A stretch of 64,000 nt of DNA. It comes from Paludibacteraceae bacterium. Its GTDB lineage: Bacteria; Bacteroidota; Bacteroidia; Bacteroidales; Paludibacteraceae. The position numbers and the translations under genes were made by a program. Within the stretch, counting starts at the first letter, position 1; each line of letters starts with the position of its first letter. This document shows positions 341 through 25,581 of the stretch, one piece after another. The stretch covers positions 1,312 through 65,311 of the forward strand of contig JAEDGZ010000007.1 of assembly GCA_016297215.1 (NCBI GenBank). Direction: 5' to 3'. A model generated the notes under the pieces. It was not told the DNA's origin. It did not search any database and saw only the letters and a list, made by a program, of their open reading frames with translations.

Positions 341-3300
341 ATGAACTTTACGCATTTGCATGTACACTCGCACTATTCGATGCTGGACGGTATGTCGAAA
401 GTGCCGGAAATAGTAGAGAAATGCCTCCGCTGCGGGATGAACGCCGTGGCGCTGACCGACCACGGGAACATGTACGGCATCAAGGAGTTGCTGGACTATT
501 GCAAGAAAGTGAACGGCAGGCTGAAAGAGGCGGCGGGCGATGGCGCGTTCGTGCCCTTCAAGCCGATAGCGGGCTGCGAGTGTTACTGCGCGCGGCGCGG
601 GCGACACTCCATGACCGATGAGAAAGCCATGAACGGCGAGGGACGCGAGTATATCATCGACCGCTCCGGCTGGCACCTCATCCTGCTGGCGAAGAACAAA
701 GTGGGCTACCACAACCTCTGCCACATCGTGAGCGAGAGTTTCATGGACGATGCCTACAACTACACCGCGCGTATTGACCGCGAGTTGCTGGAGAAATACC
801 ACGAGGGGTTGATATGCTCGTCGGCATGCCTCGGCGGGGAGTTGCCGCAGAAAATCATGGCAGGCGACATGGCAGGCGCGGAGGAGACCATCGAGTGGTT
901 CAAGGGCGTGTTCGGCGAGGACTATTACATTGAGATTCAGCGTCATCAGACCGACAAGCCGCGAGCCGACCAAGTGGTGTATCAGCGGCAGAAAGAGGTG
1001 AACCCCATCCTGATAGACTTGGCGAAGAAGCACGGTGTGAAGGTGATTGCGACCAACGACGCGCACTTCGTGAACGAAGAGAACGGCGAGGCGCACGACC
1101 GTCTGATTTGTCTGAGCACGAACCACTACGTGGACGAAGAAGACCGCATGCACTACACCAAGCAGGAGTGGGTGAAGACGCCCGAGGAGATGGAAGCCAT
1201 CTTCGGCGACATCCCCGAGGCGCTGACGAACACGCAGGAGATAGTGGACAAGGTGGAGATTTACGACATCGACTCAGGTCCTATCATGCCTAACTTCCCC
1301 ATCCCCGAGGAGTTCGGCACCGAGGAGAGTTATCGCGAGAAGTTCACCCCCGAGGACCTGTTCAACGAGTTCACGCGCAACGAGCACGGCGAGGTGGTGT
1401 TGAGCCAAGAGGAGGCGGAGAAGAAGGTGAAGAAATTAGGCGGCTACGACAAACTCTACCGAATCAAGTTGGAGGCGGATTACCTTGCCTACCTTGCCTA
1501 CAAAGGGGCGCACGAGCGCTACGGCGAGGAGTTGACCGAGGAGCAGAAAGAGCGCATTCTCTTTGAGTTGCATATCATGAAGACGATGGGTTTCCCCGGG
1601 TACTTCCTGATAGTGATGGACTTCATCCGCGCGGCGCGCGAGGAGTTGGGCGTGAGCGTGGGTCCCGGGCGCGGTAGCGCGGCGGGCAGCGTGGTTGCCT
1701 ACTGTCTGCACATCACCGACCTTGACCCGCTGAAGTACGACCTGCTGTTCGAGCGTTTCCTCAACCCCGACCGTATCTCGCTGCCGGATATAGACACCGA
1801 CTTCGACGATGTGGGGCGTCCGAAGGTCATCGACTGGGTGACGGAGCGCTACGGCAAGACGCATGTGGCGCATATCGTAACCTACGGCAAGATGGCGACC
1901 AAGAGCGCGATAGCCGACGTGGGGCGCGTGCAGCGACTGCCGTTGGCGAAGGTGGCAGAACTGAAATCGTATATCCCCGACCGCAATTTTCCCGACAACA
2001 TCAAGGACGAGAAAGGCAAGAGCCCAAAAGTGAACTTGAAGAACTGCTACAAGTACGTGGACGAGTTGAAGCACGAGTTCGAGATGGGCGAGCCGAATGT
2101 GCGGGAGGTGCTGGAGTACGCCAAGCAGTTGGAGGACACCAATCGGCAGGTAGGTATCCACGCCTGCGGCATCATCATCGGCGCGGACGACCTGACGAAG
2201 TTCGCACCCCTCTCGAGCGTGTATGACCCGAAGTTGAAGAAGCGCGTGCTCGTAACCCAATACGACGGGCACGTGGTGGAGAGCGTGGGGCTTATCAAGA
2301 TGGACTTCCTCGGGCTTATCACGCTGAATATCATCAAGGAATGTATCAAGAATGTCAAGAAGCGCACGGGCGAGGTGGTGGACATTGACCATATCCCCAT
2401 CGACGACGCGCTGACCTACAAACTCTTCCAAGAAGGGCAGACGACGGGCGTCTTCCAGTTTGAGTCGGCAGGCATGCGCAAGTACATGAAGGAGTTGCAG
2501 CCGACGGTCATAGGCGACATCATCGCGATGAACGCGCTCTACCGCCCGGGACCGATGGACTACATCCCGCAGTTCATCCGCCGCAAGCAGGGCTTGGAGC
2601 CCGTTACCTACGACATCCCCGTGATGGAGAAATACCTGAAAGACACCTACGGCGTTACGGTCTATCAGGAACAGGTCATGCTCCTCTCGCGTCTGCTGGC
2701 GAACTTCACCCGCGGCGAGAGCGACAAACTGCGTAAGGCGATGGGTAAGAAGCAGATGGCGATACTGCAAGAGTTGAAGGGCAAGTTCATGGCAGGCGGC
2801 AAAGCCAACGGACACGATGAGAAGGTGTTGGAGAAGATTTGGAGCGACTGGGAGAAGTTCGCCTCGTATGCGTTCAACAAGTCGCACGCTGCCTGCTACT
2901 CGTGGGTAGCCTACCAGACGGCATACCTCAAAGCGCACTACCCCGCGGAGTTCCTCGCCGCCAACCTCACCGTATCGAAAGACAACATCAAGGAGGTAAC
3001 GAAGTTCATGGACGAGTGCAAGGAGATGCGCATACAGGTGCTGGAGCCCGATGTGAACGAGTCGGAGATGAACTTCACCGTCAACGACCAAGGCAACATC
3101 CGCTTCGGCTTGGGCGGCATCAAGGGCGTGGGCGAAGGTGCCGTGGAAGCCATCATCTCGGAGCGCGAGAAGAACGGTAAGTTCAAAGACATCTTCGACT
3201 TCCTCGAGCGTGTGAACCTGCAAGCCTGCAACCGCAAGACGGTGGAGAACCTCGCGCTGGCGGGGGCGTTCGACTGCTTCGACGGGCTCTACCGCGAGCA

Positions 3301-4291
3301 GTTGCTCGGGCTGAACAGCAAGGGCGAGAGCGTGCTGGAGACCCTGATGCGCTACGGCACCCTCTTCCAGCAAGATAAGCAGTTGCAGCAGAACTCGCTC
3401 TTCGGCGACATGGGCGACATGGGCGTGGCGGTGCAGCACCCCGAGATACCGCAGTCTCCGCGCTGGTCGGCTATCGAGCGGCTGAACATCGAGAAATCGC
3501 TCATTGGCATCTTCCTCTCCGCCCACCCGCTGGATGAGTACGAATACGAGGTGCGCGAGATGTGCGACATCACCGCCGCCGAACTGACCCTCTTCGACGG
3601 CTGGCGCACGCCCGAAGCCCGCGCCGCTGCCGCCAAGAATAGCGAAACCTCTGATAACTCCGAAGATTCCGAGAACTCCGATAACTCCGATTTCTCCGAT
3701 GACTCCGAAGAGAAACCCCGTATCACCCCCGAGGCCTTCCTCGCGAAGTACAAGAACAAAACGCTGCACTTCGGCGGTATCGTAACGAGCGCAGAGGTGG
3801 CGACTTCGAAGAAAGGGAATATCTACGGGCGCTATGTGGTGGAAGACTACACGGGTAGTTACCGGATGACCCTCTTCGGGGAGAACTACAAACGACTCTC
3901 GCCGATGTTGCAACCCAATGTGTATGTGTATATCACGGGCACCATCGCCCAGCGCGGTGCGGGCATGCGCTGGTTCAAAGAGCAGGCGGACGAACAGGCG
4001 GAGTTTGAACTGAATATCACCAACGTAGAGTTGCTCAATGAGGTGCAAGACCTCTATGGCAAGGGGCTGACGCTCCGTATCTCGCTGCCGAACTTGGACA
4101 ACGAGCTGATAGAGGAACTGAACGACCAATGCAAAGCCCACCCGGGCAAAGGGCAACTCCACATCCAGATAGCCGACCCCATACACAACTACCTCATCCA
4201 CATGACCTCCAAAAGCCGCTACATCCGCATCACCACCGACTTCTACCGCTGGCTCCAGATGCAAGAAAAGATACAAATAGTGAACGAATAA
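341..4291 (+). CDS. dnaE: DNA polymerase III alpha subunit
   Basis: 1316-aa ORF with an N-terminal PHP domain (MNFTHLHVHSHYSMLDG). Pol III alpha core motifs are present (GPGRGSAAGSVVAYCLHITDLDP, LPDIDTDF, NKSHAACYS), followed by a C-terminal OB fold. Confidence 0.97.
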   Translation: MNFTHLHVHSHYSMLDGMSKVPEIVEKCLRCGMNAVALTDHGNMYGIKELLDYCKKVNGRLKEAAGDGAFVPFKPIAGCECYCARRGRHSMTDEKAMNGEGREYIIDRSGWHLILLAKNKVGYHNLCHIVSESFMDDAYNYTARIDRELLEKYHEGLICSSACLGGELPQKIMAGDMAGAEETIEWFKGVFGEDYYIEIQRHQTDKPRADQVVYQRQKEVNPILIDLAKKHGVKVIATNDAHFVNEENGEAHDRLICLSTNHYVDEEDRMHYTKQEWVKTPEEMEAIFGDIPEALTNTQEIVDKVEIYDIDSGPIMPNFPIPEEFGTEESYREKFTPEDLFNEFTRNEHGEVVLSQEEAEKKVKKLGGYDKLYRIKLEADYLAYLAYKGAHERYGEELTEEQKERILFELHIMKTMGFPGYFLIVMDFIRAAREELGVSVGPGRGSAAGSVVAYCLHITDLDPLKYDLLFERFLNPDRISLPDIDTDFDDVGRPKVIDWVTERYGKTHVAHIVTYGKMATKSAIADVGRVQRLPLAKVAELKSYIPDRNFPDNIKDEKGKSPKVNLKNCYKYVDELKHEFEMGEPNVREVLEYAKQLEDTNRQVGIHACGIIIGADDLTKFAPLSSVYDPKLKKRVLVTQYDGHVVESVGLIKMDFLGLITLNIIKECIKNVKKRTGEVVDIDHIPIDDALTYKLFQEGQTTGVFQFESAGMRKYMKELQPTVIGDIIAMNALYRPGPMDYIPQFIRRKQGLEPVTYDIPVMEKYLKDTYGVTVYQEQVMLLSRLLANFTRGESDKLRKAMGKKQMAILQELKGKFMAGGKANGHDEKVLEKIWSDWEKFASYAFNKSHAACYSWVAYQTAYLKAHYPAEFLAANLTVSKDNIKEVTKFMDECKEMRIQVLEPDVNESEMNFTVNDQGNIRFGLGGIKGVGEGAVEAIISEREKNGKFKDIFDFLERVNLQACNRKTVENLALAGAFDCFDGLYREQLLGLNSKGESVLETLMRYGTLFQQDKQLQQNSLFGDMGDMGVAVQHPEIPQSPRWSAIERLNIEKSLIGIFLSAHPLDEYEYEVREMCDITAAELTLFDGWRTPEARAAAAKNSETSDNSEDSENSDNSDFSDDSEEKPRITPEAFLAKYKNKTLHFGGIVTSAEVATSKKGNIYGRYVVEDYTGSYRMTLFGENYKRLSPMLQPNVYVYITGTIAQRGAGMRWFKEQADEQAEFELNITNVELLNEVQDLYGKGLTLRISLPNLDNELIEELNDQCKAHPGKGQLHIQIADPIHNYLIHMTSKSRYIRITTDFYRWLQMQEKIQIVNE
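3653..3712 (+). repeat. 9-nt tandem array (GAnnAnTCC x6) in frame inside dnaE
   Basis: The DNA reads gataactcc gaagattcc gagaactcc gataactcc gatttctcc gatgactcc and encodes DNSEDSENSDNSDFSDDS. The unit is one mismatch from the reverse complement of the intergenic array cggagtaat at 49402-49426. Confidence 0.9.
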
Positions 4292-4304
4292 GAAACGATG
4301 ATGA

Positions 4305-4779
4305 CTTGAAACATATAATTGTGCGGCTTACTCTAACATATAATTATCGTGTAATTATTCATGTAATTAACATGAGTTCGATATAAGATTTTTAGTCTTG
4401 ATTTTCTTTTGATTTCTGAGCGTAGCGAAACAAATAGACAATCGCTCATCCTATTTTAGAAAGGATTTTTAGTAAGATTATGGACTATATTTTCTGATGT
4501 GTTTCCTTAAAATCACTGCAAAAAATAACGCAAAAATCTTTACTGATAATAGTAGTGAGTGATAATTTTATGCCCTTTCGCTTCGCTCAGAAATCCATAT
4601 AAAATCAAATAGAAAATCTTTTGGTAAAATATATCTTATACGTCGTATCTTATTTCGAACTCACGTTAACTATAAATCACAATGAAAAAATTAATGAATA
4701 ATTACACGGCAATTACATGTTAAAAAAGCAAATGATAGTTATATGTTAAGAAGTATAACACGATAGTTATATGTTCAAG
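4305..4779. repeat. Long AT-rich imperfect palindrome (foldback element) between dnaE and folC
   Basis: The left arm 4305-4387 (cttgaaacatataattgtgcgg..aacatataattatcgtgtaattattcatgtaattaacatgagttcgatataag) pairs with the right arm 4649-4779. Nested inner arms also pair: 4383-4428 (aagatttttagtcttgattttcttttgatttctgagcgtagcgaaa) with ~4576-4620, and atcgctcatcctatt with aatagtagtgagtgat. Confidence 0.85.
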
Positions 4780-4805
4780 TTCCATCGTTCTGCGAAGCGA
4801 GAACT

Positions 4806-6500
4806 ATGTCTTACGAACAAACCCTCCAATACCTCTACGCCTCACAGCCGGCGTTTCATATAGTGGGCAGTAGCGCCTACAAGCCCGGGCTGGAGAACAC
4901 GCGCCGTCTGATGGCGCACCTCGGCAACCCGCATGAGCGGTTTGCCTCTGTTCATATCGCCGGCACCAACGGCAAAGGCAGCACGTCCCACCTCATCGCC
5001 GCGAGCCTGCAATGTGCGGGATACCGCGTCGGGCTCTACACCAGTCCGCACCTTGTGGACTACCGCGAGCGTATCCGTATCAACGGCGCGATGATTCCCA
5101 AGGAGGAGGTGGTGCGCTTTGTGGAGGATAACCGCGCGTTCCTCGAGGAGGTCAAACCCTCTTTCTTCGAGACCACGATGGCGCTCGCGTTCTGGTATTT
5201 CGCCCAAGAGCAAGTGGACATCGCCGTGGTGGAATGCGGTTTGGGCGGCAGGCTCGACTCCACGAACATCATCACGCCCATCCTGTCGGTCATCACGAAC
5301 ATCGGCTTCGACCACACGGAGTTCTTGGGCGACACGCTGGCGAAGATAGCCTACGAGAAGTCGGGTATCATCAAGCCCGGCGTGCCTTGCGTCATCGGCG
5401 AGACCGACCCCGAGACCATGCCCGTCTTCCTCGCCAAAGCCAAGGAATGCGGTATCTTGGGCGAGGGTTTGGAGACCACCGACTGCCGTATCTGGTTTGC
5501 CGACCAATGCGGCTACCTGCGCCGCAAGCGCCAACGCGACATCCCCGACTGCCAACTCCACGGCATCTACCAAGAGAAGAACATCCAAACCGCCTACGTA
5601 GCCCTTAGCGCATTGCAACAGACCCTCTCTAACTCCCCCTTAAGAGCACCCCAAAAATCAAAGATTTTTCGGGGACCCCGCAAGGGGGAGAACCTAACTG
5701 GGGACGCCCCGACCGTGTCGCGGGCGGTAATAAACACGGAGCGAAGCGGAGTTCTTAACACGAAGTTCCCAACACGAAGTTCCCAACACAAAGTTCTTAA
5801 CACGAAGTCCATTGCCCTCGCTTTCTCCCAAGTCTGCACGCTGACGGGTCTTCGCGGGCGTTGGGAGACGGTGCGCGAGCACCCGCTCACCATCTGCGAC
5901 ACGGGGCACAACGCGCATGGTATCAAGTACGTGGCGGAGCAGTTGGAGCAGATGATGCCGCACTACCGCAATACGCGTATCATCTTCGGCATGGTGGCGG
6001 ATAAGGACATCAGCGAGGTGGTGAAACTCCTCCCCGCCAATGCCATCTACTACTTCACCCAACCCAACAACCACCGCGCCTTCCCCGCCGAGAAACTGAA
6101 GAGGATGTTTGAGGATGAAGGATTAAGGACACAGGATAAAAGACAAAATAGTATATCGGATGAAAGATTAAGGATAAAGGATGAAAGACTAAATAGTTCT
6201 GCAAACGAACTCCCCCGCCCCGCTTGCGGGGAGGGGGCAGGGGGCGGGGCAACCTCCGAGACGCAGGTAACTAATTTATCCCCCTCCCTTTTCGGGGTCC
6301 CCACAAGCAACGCGCAGTGGGGTGGCTTCAGGGAGGGACGGGGTGGGTCTTCTTTCCCCACCATAGACGAAGCCCTCGCCGCCGCCTTCGCGGAAGCCTC
6401 GCCCGACGACCTTATCTTCATCGGCGGCAGCAACTACGTAGTAGGTGCCGCCCTCCAATCTCCCTACCTCACTGCCCCGCTGACCTCACCGAAAGAGTAG
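4806..6500 (+). CDS. folC: Folylpolyglutamate synthase / dihydrofolate synthase, carrying two large repeat-derived inserts
   Basis: 564-aa ORF with the Mur-ligase P-loop HIAGTNGKGSTSH, VVECGLGGRLDSTN and NIGFDHTEFLG, plus C-domain GLRGRWE..DTGHNAHG and a terminal LIFIGGSNYVVG. It is roughly 120-140 aa longer than my expectation for FolC because of the inserts at about 5625-5825 and 6111-6360. Confidence 0.9.
   Translation: MSYEQTLQYLYASQPAFHIVGSSAYKPGLENTRRLMAHLGNPHERFASVHIAGTNGKGSTSHLIAASLQCAGYRVGLYTSPHLVDYRERIRINGAMIPKEEVVRFVEDNRAFLEEVKPSFFETTMALAFWYFAQEQVDIAVVECGLGGRLDSTNIITPILSVITNIGFDHTEFLGDTLAKIAYEKSGIIKPGVPCVIGETDPETMPVFLAKAKECGILGEGLETTDCRIWFADQCGYLRRKRQRDIPDCQLHGIYQEKNIQTAYVALSALQQTLSNSPLRAPQKSKIFRGPRKGENLTGDAPTVSRAVINTERSGVLNTKFPTRSSQHKVLNTKSIALAFSQVCTLTGLRGRWETVREHPLTICDTGHNAHGIKYVAEQLEQMMPHYRNTRIIFGMVADKDISEVVKLLPANAIYYFTQPNNHRAFPAEKLKRMFEDEGLRTQDKRQNSISDERLRIKDERLNSSANELPRPACGEGAGGGATSETQVTNLSPSLFGVPTSNAQWGGFREGRGGSSFPTIDEALAAAFAEASPDDLIFIGGSNYVVGAALQSPYLTAPLTSPKE
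5631..5690 (+). repeat. ~60-nt GC-hairpin element, copy 1 (inside folC)
   Basis: The sequence aactcccccttaagagcaccccaaaaatcaaagatttttcggggaccccgcaagggggag is near-identical to 47941-48003. The outer stem is ctccccct/agggggag and the centre is the palindrome cggggaccccg. Confidence 0.9.
5750..5810 (+). repeat. Alternating heptamer array (agttcyy aacacra) x4, inside folC
   Basis: The array reads agttctt aacacga agttccc aacacga agttccc aacacaa agttctt aacacga agtcc. The 14-nt period is not a multiple of 3, yet the folC frame stays open. Confidence 0.9.
6111..6193 (+). repeat. GGATRAA heptamer-type array inside folC
   Basis: The array reads gaggatgaaggattaaggacacaggataaaagac...ggatgaaagattaaggataaaggatgaaagac. 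The same word family occurs in intergenic leaders at 36892-36925 and 58890-58934. Confidence 0.85.
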
Positions 6501-18508: not shown

Positions 18509-18790
18509 AACTACTCTTTCCCTCTGGAACATATAATTATCGTGTAATTATTCGTACAATTTTGCAACGAAAAATTAATGGTTAATTACATGATAATTAT
18601 ATGTTAAAAGAACTACTCTTTCCCTCTGGAACATATAATTATCGTGTAATTATTCGTATAATTTTGCAACGAAAAATTAATGGTTAATTATACGATAATT
18701 ATATGTTAAAAGATAATGGCAATTAACGGAGAAAACTCAACGAAAAATTAATGGTTAATTACACGATAATTATATGTTAAAAGATAACAG
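18509..18790. repeat. Tandem array of AT-rich hairpin elements (2 full 102-bp units plus a partial third)
   Basis: Unit 18509-18610 is aactactctttccctctggaacatataattatcgtgtaattattcgtacaattttgcaacgaaaaattaatggttaattacatgataattatatgttaaaag. It is repeated at 18611-18712, and a third right arm lies at 18740-18782. Each unit folds (aacatataattatcgtgtaatta / taattacatgataattatatgtt). Confidence 0.9.
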
Positions 18791-25111: not shown

Positions 25112-25259
25112 TTTGTTTTCTTTTACATACGCAAATTTTTGAGCAAAAATCTTGCAAAAAAGTGTGATTTTGCATATTATTAAGCTTTATTTAAGTGCAA
25201 AAGTGCGGAAGTAGCGTTTGTTTTTTGTTATGTATATGCTTTCAGAATGTTATTGTAAT

Positions 25260-25581
25260 GTGAACTCGAAATAAGATTTATACACAAAAATAAACAATAA
25301 TACTTGACAAAAACGAACAAAAACTCTTTTACTCAACAAATATTTTCAAATATTGTTCAAATAGGTTTTCTATAACATATAATTGTCATATAATTAATCA
25401 TCAATTCATTACCAAAAATCAAATTAGTCTTTGACTGCTGAAGTAACTCGCTTATATCGAGCTCACGTAATGTAGTACAACTTGTATATCATTACCATAA
25501 AAAATGTGTTGAACTGTCGGTGCAGTTCAACACATATCGTGTCAAGCATTCTTGAAACATGTAATTGTCGTTGCATTAATC
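25260..25581. repeat. Mosaic copy of the AT-rich foldback element family
   Basis: Segment 25260-25279 (gtgaactcgaaataagattt) is inverted relative to 25451-25467 (cttatatcgagctcacg). Segment 25374-25401 is aacatataattgtcatataattaatcat. Segment 25551-25581 (cttgaaacatgtaattgtcgttgcattaatc) matches the start of the 4305 element. Confidence 0.75.
25499..25533 (-). terminator. Rho-independent terminator of ddh (duplicate of the 20867 module)
   Basis: The stem gtgttgaactg / cagttcaacac is followed on the minus strand by tttttt. Confidence 0.8.

What the first reader, a model, noticed from the sequence alone, without database searches (positions are those of the whole stretch)
4305..4779. ~470-bp AT-rich foldback palindrome between dnaE and folC
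Almost the whole 515-bp intergenic gap can fold on itself. The outer arms (4305-4387 and 4649-4779) each contain a duplicated AACATATAAYT core. Inner arms pair as aagatttt..tttgatttctgagcgtagcgaaa with tttcgcttcgctcagaaatcc..aaaatctt, and a third tier also pairs. By eye the composition is far more AT-rich than the flanking genes. I found no TAnnTTTG box and no ORF inside. Candidate roles are a MITE-like foldback element, a cruciform-forming site or a long structured RNA.
Basis: seen in the sequence. Interest (0 to 1): 0.62.

Follow-up and report, generated by a model that had tools for sequence, protein, structure and literature searches.

The report
Nested transposon relics between dnaE and folC
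The AT-rich "giant hairpin" between two essential genes of a pig-gut Paludibacteraceae bacterium is not one element: it is a small non-coding jumping element (an IS982-type MITE) that landed inside an older palindromic repeat, which is an ordinary kind of event, here caught with its empty site in a sister strain.

Summary
The 514-nt dnaE-folC gap has 27-31% GC against 55-63% in the flanking genes. It folds far better than shuffled sequence (DNA z -8.8, RNA z -11.5) and holds no ORF and no TAnnTTTG box.

It is a nest of two elements, not one palindrome.

Inner element (window 4370-4666, 297 bp):
- It is a MITE with the 18-bp terminal inverted repeats of IS982-family insertion sequences and starts with 5'-AC.
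- It is flanked by a 6-bp target duplication, TAATTA/TAACTA.
- Sister-strain contig L189 carries the exact empty site (one TAATTA). Another strain, L191, carries the filled site with a perfect duplication.
- G000's assembly has no IS982 transposase. Same-genus genomes hold full IS copies with the same repeats.

Outer element (about 211 nt):
- It is a multi-tier palindrome built from a 35-nt unit with three TAATTA boxes 11 nt apart.
- The unit has 68 or more copies in this genome, all 82 best copies intergenic, and was found in only two other genomes of the genus.
- Its way of spreading is unknown.

In several same-genus species dnaE directly abuts or overlaps folC, so the whole gap is an insertion.

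Verdict: a new member of known kinds. The side issues are modestly interesting: the units act as landing pads for MITEs, and the junction is hypervariable between strains.

The parts
341..4291 (+). dnaE (DNA polymerase III alpha), upstream flank
   Evidence: NF004226 1198 bits; ORF 341..4291
4292..4332 (.). Outermost left tier of the outer palindrome. It begins one base after the dnaE stop codon and contains a partial unit (AACATATAATTG at 4310-4321). It pairs with 4750-4790.
   Evidence: Inverted repeats I3 and I16; fold of the L189 empty-site gap
4333..4369 (+). Full 35-37-nt TAATTA-box unit, left arm (CTAACATATAATTATCGTGTAATTATTCATGTAATTA). Its last box, TAATTA at 4364-4369, is the MITE target and the left copy of the duplication.
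   Evidence: blastn-short site C13:+5644, 73.8 bits; 68 genome hits to the core; single TAATTA in the empty site L189
4370..4666 (.). 297-bp IS982-family-derived foldback MITE. IRL is 4370-4387 (ACATGAGTTCGATATAAG). IRR is 4649-4666 (reverse complement ACGTGAGTTCGAAATAAG). Subterminal inverted repeats are 4398-4430 / 4576-4608. It folds on itself along its whole length.
   Evidence: Each IR matches 17 of 18 positions of the IRs of full IS982 elements; absent in L189, present in L191; DNA fold z -7.3; further copies at G000:C25:45697-45935 and in G050
4667..4672 (.). Right copy of the 6-bp target-site duplication (TAACTA here; TAATTA in strain L191 and in runs X4/X6)
   Evidence: C>T at 4670
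4673..4686 (.). Loop of the outer palindrome (TAAATCACAATGAA). A paralogous palindrome at G000:C45 has the similar loop AAATCACAGTGAAAA.
4687..4723 (-). Full TAATTA-box unit, right arm (inverted copy)
   Evidence: Site C13:-6034, 75.8 bits
4724..4790 (-). Outer right tiers: two partial inverted units (GATAGTTATATGTT at 4734 and 4762) and the outermost arm, which pairs with 4292-4318
   Evidence: D2, I3, I5; fold
4806..6500 (+). folC, downstream flank. It has no TAnnTTTG box upstream within the gap.
   Evidence: TIGR01499 342 bits

Best explanation
The foldback is a nest of two non-coding repeat elements inserted between genes that were originally fused end to end.

Step 1 (inferred from comparison). 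In the ancestor of the genus, dnaE abutted or overlapped folC. In the lineage of this species, about 211 nt of AT-rich palindromic repeat DNA came to lie between them. That DNA is built from a 35-nt unit carrying three TAATTA boxes one helical turn apart, arranged as inverted copies around a short loop, with further partial copies outside.

Step 2 (shown). A 297-bp miniature inverted-repeat transposable element derived from an IS982-family insertion sequence then transposed into the loop-proximal TAATTA box of the left unit. It duplicated those 6 bp. The MITE has no gene. Its 18-bp ends (5'-ACGTGAGTTCGATATAAG) are those recognised by the DDE transposase of IS982-type elements present in related genomes. 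It must therefore have been moved in trans (inferred).

Why it looks like one palindrome. The MITE is itself a foldback and landed almost at the centre of an existing palindrome, so the composite reads as a single ~470-bp, three-tier palindrome.

Consequence (inferred). No canonical Bacteroidota promoter box lies in the gap, so folC is most likely still transcribed by read-through from dnaE across a very stable hairpin.
For: Terminal repeats:
- The exact 21-mer CTTATATCGAACTCACGTTAA ends IS982-type elements in more than 120 contigs.
- L085 is a 1076-bp IS with both IRs and a 300-aa transposase: NF033520 IS982, E 5.5e-72; PF13612.
- Same-genus genomes hold full copies with identical IRs: G006 (1129 bp) and G070 (1079 bp, duplication TAATATA).
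- The ends here match 17 of 18 positions on each side and start with 5'-AC, as the family review states (PMC7335449).

Insertion event:
- L189 (a strain with dnaE mostly 94-100% identical per 100-nt window over 2001-3600, falling to 73-91% over 3601-4200) has a 211-nt gap equal to this gap minus 303 nt. It reads ...CATGTAATTA|TAAATCAC... with one TAATTA.
- L191 and runs X4/X6 have the filled form with TAATTA on both sides.

Repeat events:
- G050:C31 carries the same MITE in a TAATTA box of another palindrome, with duplication TAATTA. The orthologous G000:C45 site is empty.
- A different MITE sits at the equivalent place in G050:C24, where G000:C4 is empty.
- Other IS982-MITE copies in G000 show 6-8-bp duplications.

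Outer arms are an independent family:
- 164 blastn-short sites, of which 82 good ones are all intergenic.
- 68 core hits in G000, 75 in G050, 11 in G006 and 0 in 58 other relatives.

Gap is derived:
- In 9 same-genus genomes the dnaE homology runs to within about 100 nt of the folC start, with stop-to-start gaps of 0-19 nt in the three measured.
- In L182 the two genes overlap by 4 nt.

The inner MITE and the outer palindrome each fold on their own (z -7.3 and -7.2).
Against: - No IS982 transposase is in the G000 assembly, so mobilisation in trans is inferred. The source may be an unassembled copy, a lost copy or another replicon.
- How the outer palindrome got there is not shown. No target duplication and no empty site were found for it, and no partner enzyme was identified.
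- Read-through transcription of folC rests on the absence of a motif and on undirected metatranscriptome contigs.
- The right copy of the duplication in G000 differs by one base (TAACTA).
Confidence: 0.88

Rival explanations
1. The hairpin itself is under selection. A large stem-loop directly after the dnaE stop codon would serve as a terminator or attenuator, an RNA-stability element or an RNase III processing site that uncouples folC from dnaE. The repeats would merely be the raw material. This reading is compatible with the nested-insertion history.
For: - Three unrelated gap fillings in different strain lineages all start within 0-2 nt of the dnaE stop and all fold far better than shuffles: G000 type z -9.0, L184 type z -6.2, L181 type z -6.0.
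- The gap is 99-100% identical among G000, L189 and L191, while the flanking coding DNA is 73-100% identical per 100-nt window, mostly 85-100%.
- Metatranscriptome contigs cover the MITE interior and run from 4697 into folC.
Against: - Several same-genus species have no gap, or only a very short one, between dnaE and folC.
- Nearly every repeat family in this genome is palindromic, so any filling would fold.
- High identity may reflect recent acquisition or recombination.
- No compensatory changes are available to test.
- The contigs carry no strand information and may include DNA.
Confidence: 0.15
2. The whole ~470-bp palindrome is one foldback MITE that moves as a unit.
For: - Nested inverted repeats span the whole gap.
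- In G050:C31 the same MITE is again flanked by inverted units.
Against: - The L189 empty site retains both outer arms and lacks only the inner 303 nt.
- In G050:C31 the flanking palindrome is orthologous to an empty palindrome in G000:C45.
- The second G000 copy of the MITE (C25) has no flanking units.
- The outer arms occur dozens of times without the MITE.
Confidence: 0.03
3. An invertible DNA switch (inverton): the inverted repeats are recombinase sites and the centre flips to turn folC or an internal promoter on and off.
For: - Long inverted repeats flank an AT-rich segment upstream of a gene in a Bacteroidales genome.
- One 'opposite strands' joint (4457 to 4669) appears in run X2 at 85% likeness.
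Against: - No promoter box lies inside and no recombinase gene is adjacent.
- At 97% likeness the source sample and three other runs show only the assembled orientation.
- The single odd joint is explained by other copies of a palindromic MITE.
Confidence: 0.02
4. Assembly artefact: collapsed or chimeric repeats joined wrongly in a metagenome-assembled genome.
For: - Logan contigs of the source run break at 4404/4405, inside the MITE.
- The repeats are multi-copy, with 10-20 times the depth.
Against: - An independent assembly from another sample (L191) gives the same 513-nt gap base for base, apart from one deletion and one substitution.
- Junction-spanning contigs exist in X4/X6 at flank depth (4340-4402 and 4611-4714).
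Confidence: 0.01

Closest known systems
MITECca01/02, IS982-derived MITEs of the Cardinium endosymbiont of Oedothorax gibbosus (Bacteroidota) (PMC9769881)
   Same: - Short (about 240 bp), gene-less and multi-copy.
- Terminal inverted repeats match those of an IS982-family element.
- Lineage-specific spread.
   Different: - In Cardinium the parental IS (ISCca4) is intact in the same genome. Here no transposase is in the assembly.
- Different sequence.
- This subfamily is low-copy (2 in G000), is a foldback along its whole length, and sits inside another repeat.
IS982 family insertion sequences, e.g. IS1187 of Bacteroides fragilis (PMC7335449)
   Same: - IRs begin with 5'-AC.
- Direct repeats are of variable length (IS1187: 7 bp; here 6-8 bp).
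- The same 18-bp IR is found on full ~1.08-1.13-kb elements with an NF033520 transposase in same-genus genomes.
   Different: - 297 bp with no transposase gene.
- The family IR consensus AC(N)6T(N)5TT is only partly matched: the AC and the T at position 9 fit, but positions 15-16 are TA.
REP/BIME elements of Proteobacteria and their use as insertion targets by IS elements (IS1397, ISKpn1, IS110-type; recalled from Tobes & Pareja 2006 and Wilde et al. 2003; not re-read here)
   Same: - The outer TAATTA-box repeats are strictly extragenic, occur singly, as inverted pairs and as tandem arrays, and show no target duplication.
- They repeatedly receive transposon insertions (three events documented here).
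   Different: - The 35-nt unit is not itself a palindrome but three direct 11-mers.
- It is very AT-rich.
- The genome's one RAYT-like gene is flanked by a different, GC-rich hairpin family.
- No partner enzyme was found.
Correia elements (Neisseria) and Rickettsia palindromic elements (own knowledge; RPEs were also named by earlier agents on this genome)
   Same: About 80-200-nt palindromic, non-coding, high-copy, lineage-restricted repeats that sit next to or between genes and form long RNA or DNA hairpins.
   Different: - Correia elements have a TA duplication and a defined 26-bp TIR. No duplication was found for the outer palindrome here.
- RPEs are typically in frame inside genes, whereas all 82 good unit copies here are intergenic.

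Membership tests
IS982-family-derived MITE (inner element 4370-4666) | Terminal inverted repeats matching those of bona fide IS982-family elements and beginning with 5'-AC | tested here: met
   IRL ACATGAGTTCGATATAAG and IRR (reverse complement) ACGTGAGTTCGAAATAAG, against ACGTGAGTTCGATATAAG on full IS elements that encode an NF033520 transposase; the AC ends are stated in PMC7335449
IS982-family-derived MITE (inner element 4370-4666) | Target-site duplication, with a demonstrable empty site | tested here: met
   6-bp TAATTA duplicated (perfect in L191, X4 and X6); single TAATTA in L189; second event G050:C31 against empty G000:C45
IS982-family-derived MITE (inner element 4370-4666) | Small (under about 300-500 bp), with no transposase ORF | tested here: met
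   297 bp; no ORF of 40 aa or more inside
IS982-family-derived MITE (inner element 4370-4666) | Multiple copies in the genome or lineage | tested here: met
   Subfamily: 2 copies in G000 and 2 full copies plus fragments in G050. Family with the same IRs: 48 IR hits and 14 IR pairs of 79-584 bp in G000
IS982-family-derived MITE (inner element 4370-4666) | Parental autonomous IS available to supply transposase | tested here: inconclusive
   None in the G000 assembly. Present above the cut-off in 6 of 61 same-genus genomes. IS copies are often lost from MAG assemblies.
Classical TIR-type MITE (outer ~211-nt palindrome) | Terminal inverted repeats plus a target-site duplication | tested here: not met
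   35-nt inverted arms are present, but no direct repeats flank about a dozen distinct inverted unit pairs (23 pairings listed). The flanks instead extend the palindrome.
REP/BIME with RAYT (outer palindrome) | The unit is a short imperfect palindrome, and a RAYT gene is flanked by the same units | tested here: not met
   The unit is three direct 11-mers, not a hairpin. The only Y1_Tnp gene (C43:8231-8917) is flanked by GC-rich hairpins, not by TAATTA units.
REP/BIME with RAYT (outer palindrome) | Strictly extragenic, dispersed, with clusters in alternating orientation | tested here: met
   82 of 82 good copies are intergenic, in 52 gaps, with no strand bias; inverted pairs and tandem arrays occur
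Inverton (invertible promoter) | Both orientations present in reads from one population; a promoter inside | tested here: not met
   Only one orientation at 97% likeness in 4 DNA runs; no TAnnTTTG inside
Known structured RNA family | Match to an Rfam covariance model | tested here: not met
   Best hits have E 0.16 and 0.87, far below the gathering scores

The most novel reading that the evidence does not exclude
The 35-nt TAATTA-box units would be a previously undescribed class of REP-like mobile or self-propagating DNA in Bacteroidales, with no target duplication, no RAYT and multi-tier palindromes. They would act as preferred, possibly structure-specific, landing pads for at least two MITE families. 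The dnaE-folC junction would also be under selection to carry some large hairpin, since three unrelated foldbacks occupy it in sister strains.
Probability: 0.2. Interest if true: 0.55.

Novelty: new member of a known kind. Interest (0 to 1): 0.3.

Why it matters
The locus gives a clean, fully bounded example of an IS982-derived MITE in a free-living gut Bacteroidales: both ends, the target duplication, the empty site and a second independent event are all in hand. Such elements are rarely annotated and routinely break MAG assemblies.

It also shows that an apparently exotic giant palindrome can come from ordinary nested transposition into a pre-existing palindromic repeat.

More broadly, this 1.9-Mb pig-gut Paludibacteraceae genome is unusually rich in modular intergenic repeats, and the junction between two essential genes turns over between strains. 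That bears on how streamlined gut genomes tolerate repeat invasion, and on strain typing.

It does not reveal a new mechanism.

Tried and rejected
- nhmmer with the 70-nt arm found only the two local copies, being too insensitive for 35-nt AT-rich repeats. I replaced it with blastn-short.
- I first read TTAA as the target duplication, because many copies look like TTAAC...GTTAA. The L189/L191 comparison and other copies showed that the element starts at AC and the duplication is 6-8 bp.
- The 'skip' joints in Logan contigs (4357>4694, 4368>4680, 4369>4686 and others) looked like excision alleles. Their inserted letters match paralogous palindromes elsewhere in the genome, so they are not alleles of this locus.
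- A scan of JGI metagenome contigs with the DnaE C-terminus found nothing, as did an exact look-up of DnaE. Strain contigs came instead from the 90% DnaE cluster.
- I looked for a partner enzyme for the outer units. The single RAYT-like gene is tied to another repeat. A 2.9-kb segment replacing one palindrome in G050 is a restriction-modification cassette, not a transposase.
- I tested the units for gene-orientation bias and found none of note.
- An Rfam search and sigma-70 promoter and terminator scans were uninformative.

Full report
**Observation.** The gap between the dnaE-like ORF (341-4291) and the folC-like ORF (4806-6500) is 514 nt. Its GC content is 0.27-0.32, against 0.55-0.64 in the genes.
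- 4398-4430 / 4576-4608: 33 nt, 88% complementary.
- 4334-4362 / 4694-4722: 29 nt, 90%.
- 4364-4389 / 4647-4672: 26 nt, 88%.
- 4330-4360 / 4750-4780: 31 nt, 81%.

The duplicated AACATATAAYT cores are there too. As single-stranded DNA the gap folds to -82.4 kcal/mol, against -42.2 +/- 4.6 for dinucleotide shuffles (z -8.8). As RNA it folds to -149.7 kcal/mol (z -11.5). No ORF of 40 aa or more lies wholly inside. No TAnnTTTG box occurs on either strand. No Rfam family matches.

**The arms are a dispersed repeat.** A search of the window's own genome with the gap gave 134 matches. That genome (G000) is 1.92 Mb in 45 contigs, 96% complete. Almost all matches fell on one ~35-nt core, present in both orientations (window 4333-4369 on + and 4687-4723 on -). 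Its consensus is TTAACATATAATTATCGTGTAATTATTCATTAATT, which is three TAATTA boxes 11 nt apart.
- blastn-short finds 164 sites. The 82 best are all intergenic, in 52 different gaps, with no strand or gene-orientation bias.
- The 28-nt core at 3 or fewer mismatches gives 68 hits in G000, 75 in G050 and 11 in G006. It gives none in 58 other relatives, including 34 same-genus species. The reversed control gives 0.
- The units occur singly, as tandem arrays, and as inverted pairs 81-114 nt long. These pairs are often flanked by further partial units that extend the palindrome. The outer 211 nt of this gap has exactly that architecture.

**The inner part is an IS982-type MITE.** Aligning the extended copies showed that many units lie inside a ~200-220-nt element bounded by TTAACGTGARYTCGAWATAAG ... 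CTTATATCGAACTCACGTTAA. The same ends bracket window 4367-4669.
- The exact right-end 21-mer was found in more than 120 contigs. They came from across Bacteroidota and from a few other phyla, often at contig ends.
- Upstream of it in several loci lies the 3' end of a transposase gene.
- L085 holds a complete 1076-bp element with both repeats. Its 300-aa protein scores E 5.5e-72 against NF033520 (IS982 family transposase) and 1.4e-66 against PF13612.
- Same-genus genomes carry full copies with the identical 18-bp repeat ACGTGAGTTCGATATAAG: G006 (1129 bp) and G070 (1079 bp, 7-bp duplication TAATATA).
- The family review gives 5'-AC ends, variable direct repeats and a 7-bp repeat for Bacteroides IS1187 (PMC7335449).
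- An IS982-derived MITE has been described in Cardinium, another member of Bacteroidota (PMC9769881).
- G000 itself has no IS982 transposase.

**Empty and filled sites.** Members of the 90%-identity DnaE cluster gave strain-level contigs.
- L189 has dnaE mostly 94-100% identical per 100-nt window over 2001-3600, dropping to 73-91% over 3601-4200. Its gap is 211 nt and is identical to the G000 gap except for one base and the absence of 303 nt. It reads ...TTCATGTAATTA|TAAATCACAATG..., with one TAATTA.
- L191 has a 513-nt gap with ...GTAATTA[ACATGAG...CTCACGT]TAATTATAAATC....

The mobile unit is therefore window 4370-4666 (297 bp, ends AC...GT). It carries a 6-bp target duplication TAATTA, and in G000 the right copy has mutated to TAACTA. 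Contigs from runs X4 and X6 cross both junctions at flank depth and show the perfect duplication. The source run X1 and three other runs show no alternative orientation or excision at 97% likeness. The 'skip' joints seen at lower stringency carry the loops of paralogous palindromes and are not alleles of this locus. Other IS982-MITE copies in G000 have duplications of 6-8 bp that begin and end with TA: TAAGTATA, TATCCGTA, TAAATTA, TAACTA, TATTTA.

**Repeat events.**
- The 297-bp subfamily has a second, decayed copy at G000:C25:45697-45935 without flanking units. It has two full copies in G050.
- One of those, G050:C31, sits in the TAATTA box on the other side of the loop of another unit palindrome, again with TAATTA duplicated. 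The orthologous G000:C45 palindrome is empty.
- In G050:C24 a different ~172-bp MITE (ends GGTAATGATATAC..GTTGACCC, duplication TAATTTTT) occupies the equivalent position of a third palindrome. That palindrome is empty in G000:C4.

That makes three independent insertions at the loop-proximal box of these palindromes. They may be preferred targets, or they may simply be the most AT-rich TA...TA sequences available in a genome whose genes are about 60% GC.

**The gap as a whole is derived and unstable.**
- In nine same-genus genomes the dnaE homology extends to within about 100 nt of the folC start. The stop-to-start gaps were 0, 6 and 19 nt in the three measured.
- In L182 (75% DnaE identity) the two genes overlap by 4 nt.
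- Among contigs of the 90% cluster the gap is filled in at least four unrelated ways. These are the type described here; a 279-nt GC-rich filling (L184-188, L190); a 193-nt filling of heptamer repeats (L181, with the same opening sequence in the truncated L192); and 1117 nt with a HicA-type toxin-antitoxin pair (L183).
- The first three each start within 2 nt of the dnaE stop and each fold far better than shuffles (z -9.0, -6.2, -6.0).
- The G000-type gap is 99-100% identical among G000, L189 and L191. The flanking coding DNA is 73-100% identical per 100-nt window, mostly 85-100%.

These two facts leave room for a selected role of a hairpin at this junction. They are equally explained by recent spread and by the palindromic nature of all the repeat families in this genome.

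**Expression.** Pig-gut metatranscriptome contigs cover the MITE interior and run from 4697 into folC. Logan contigs have no direction, can contain DNA, and the MITE interior is multi-copy. With no promoter box in the gap, read-through from dnaE is the simplest reading, but it is inferred.

**Verdict.** It is a 297-bp IS982-derived foldback MITE nested in a lineage-specific palindromic repeat, inside an insertion-prone junction. The inner element is a new member of a known kind. The outer repeat family resembles REP/BIME or Correia-type elements in organisation but fails the tested membership criteria for each, and its mode of spread is open.

Noticed in passing
G000:C43:8231-9180 (outside the window): A RAYT-like Y1 transposase gene (229-aa frame, PF01797 37 bits) carries an HVHVL motif and a YYDRY motif. 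Upstream it is flanked by five tandem copies of the GC-rich hairpin AGCAGGCGGGGACGCCTGCGCACCCGGAC, with hairpin-derived sequence on the other side. This looks like a REP-RAYT pair for the GC-rich REP family noted elsewhere in this window.
   Followed up: partly
L184-L188, L190 (gap 279 nt); L181/L192 (193 nt in L181); L183 (1117 nt), all between dnaE and folC: Sister strains fill the same junction with unrelated sequences: a GC-rich foldback, heptamer repeats, or a HicA-type toxin-antitoxin pair plus repeats. The two folded (L184 and L181) begin right after the dnaE stop and fold strongly (z about -6).
   Followed up: partly
window 4201-4800 compared with L189 and L191: The intergenic gap is 99-100% identical among three strains, while the adjacent coding DNA is 73-100% identical per 100-nt window, with mosaic blocks. 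The cause could be recent spread, recombination or constraint.
   Followed up: no
window 25255-25471 (C13:26566-26782) and about 45 other places in G000: A canonical ~200-220-nt IS982-type MITE family has swappable internal modules. These are the TAATTA unit, a CCCTCTAAATCTCCCTTAAAGGGAGAC hairpin, the GC-rich REP hairpin and a CCCGACnnnTCGGG hairpin. Three copies with the internal TAATTA unit lie about 194 nt apart at C25:53930-54513.
   Followed up: partly
G000:C6:13761-13995: Four TAATTA units form a tandem array with a 57-nt period, separated by G-runs (GTGGGGGGG).
   Followed up: no
G000 contig starts C2:1-108, C3:1-136, C10:1-117, C34:1-111; also C35:36188-36368: Arrays of the 11-mer ATCACTAACTA directly precede the right end of IS982-type MITEs. 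Several contigs break inside these arrays.
   Followed up: no
L061-L140: The exact 21-nt IS982 right end occurs in Calditrichaeota, Poribacteria, Nitrosomonas, Acidobacteria and Gastranaerophilales contigs as well as across Bacteroidota. One IS982 lineage with a nearly invariant end is therefore very widely spread.
   Followed up: no
G050:C24:34686-34859 against G000:C4:40388-40468: A second MITE family (about 172 bp, ends GGTAATGATATAC..GTTGACCC, 8-bp duplication TAATTTTT) is inserted in a unit palindrome. Its ends also abut units at G000:C3:17326, C5:25806 and C16:855.
   Followed up: partly
G050:C50:10503-13400 against G000:C14:71906-71987: G050 has a 2.9-kb restriction-modification cassette (a C5 cytosine methyltransferase plus two other ORFs) where G000 has only a unit palindrome.
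   Followed up: partly
window 18526-18780 (C13:19837-20091): Two and a half tandem 102-nt copies of a unit palindrome belong to the same family as the outer arms here.
   Followed up: partly
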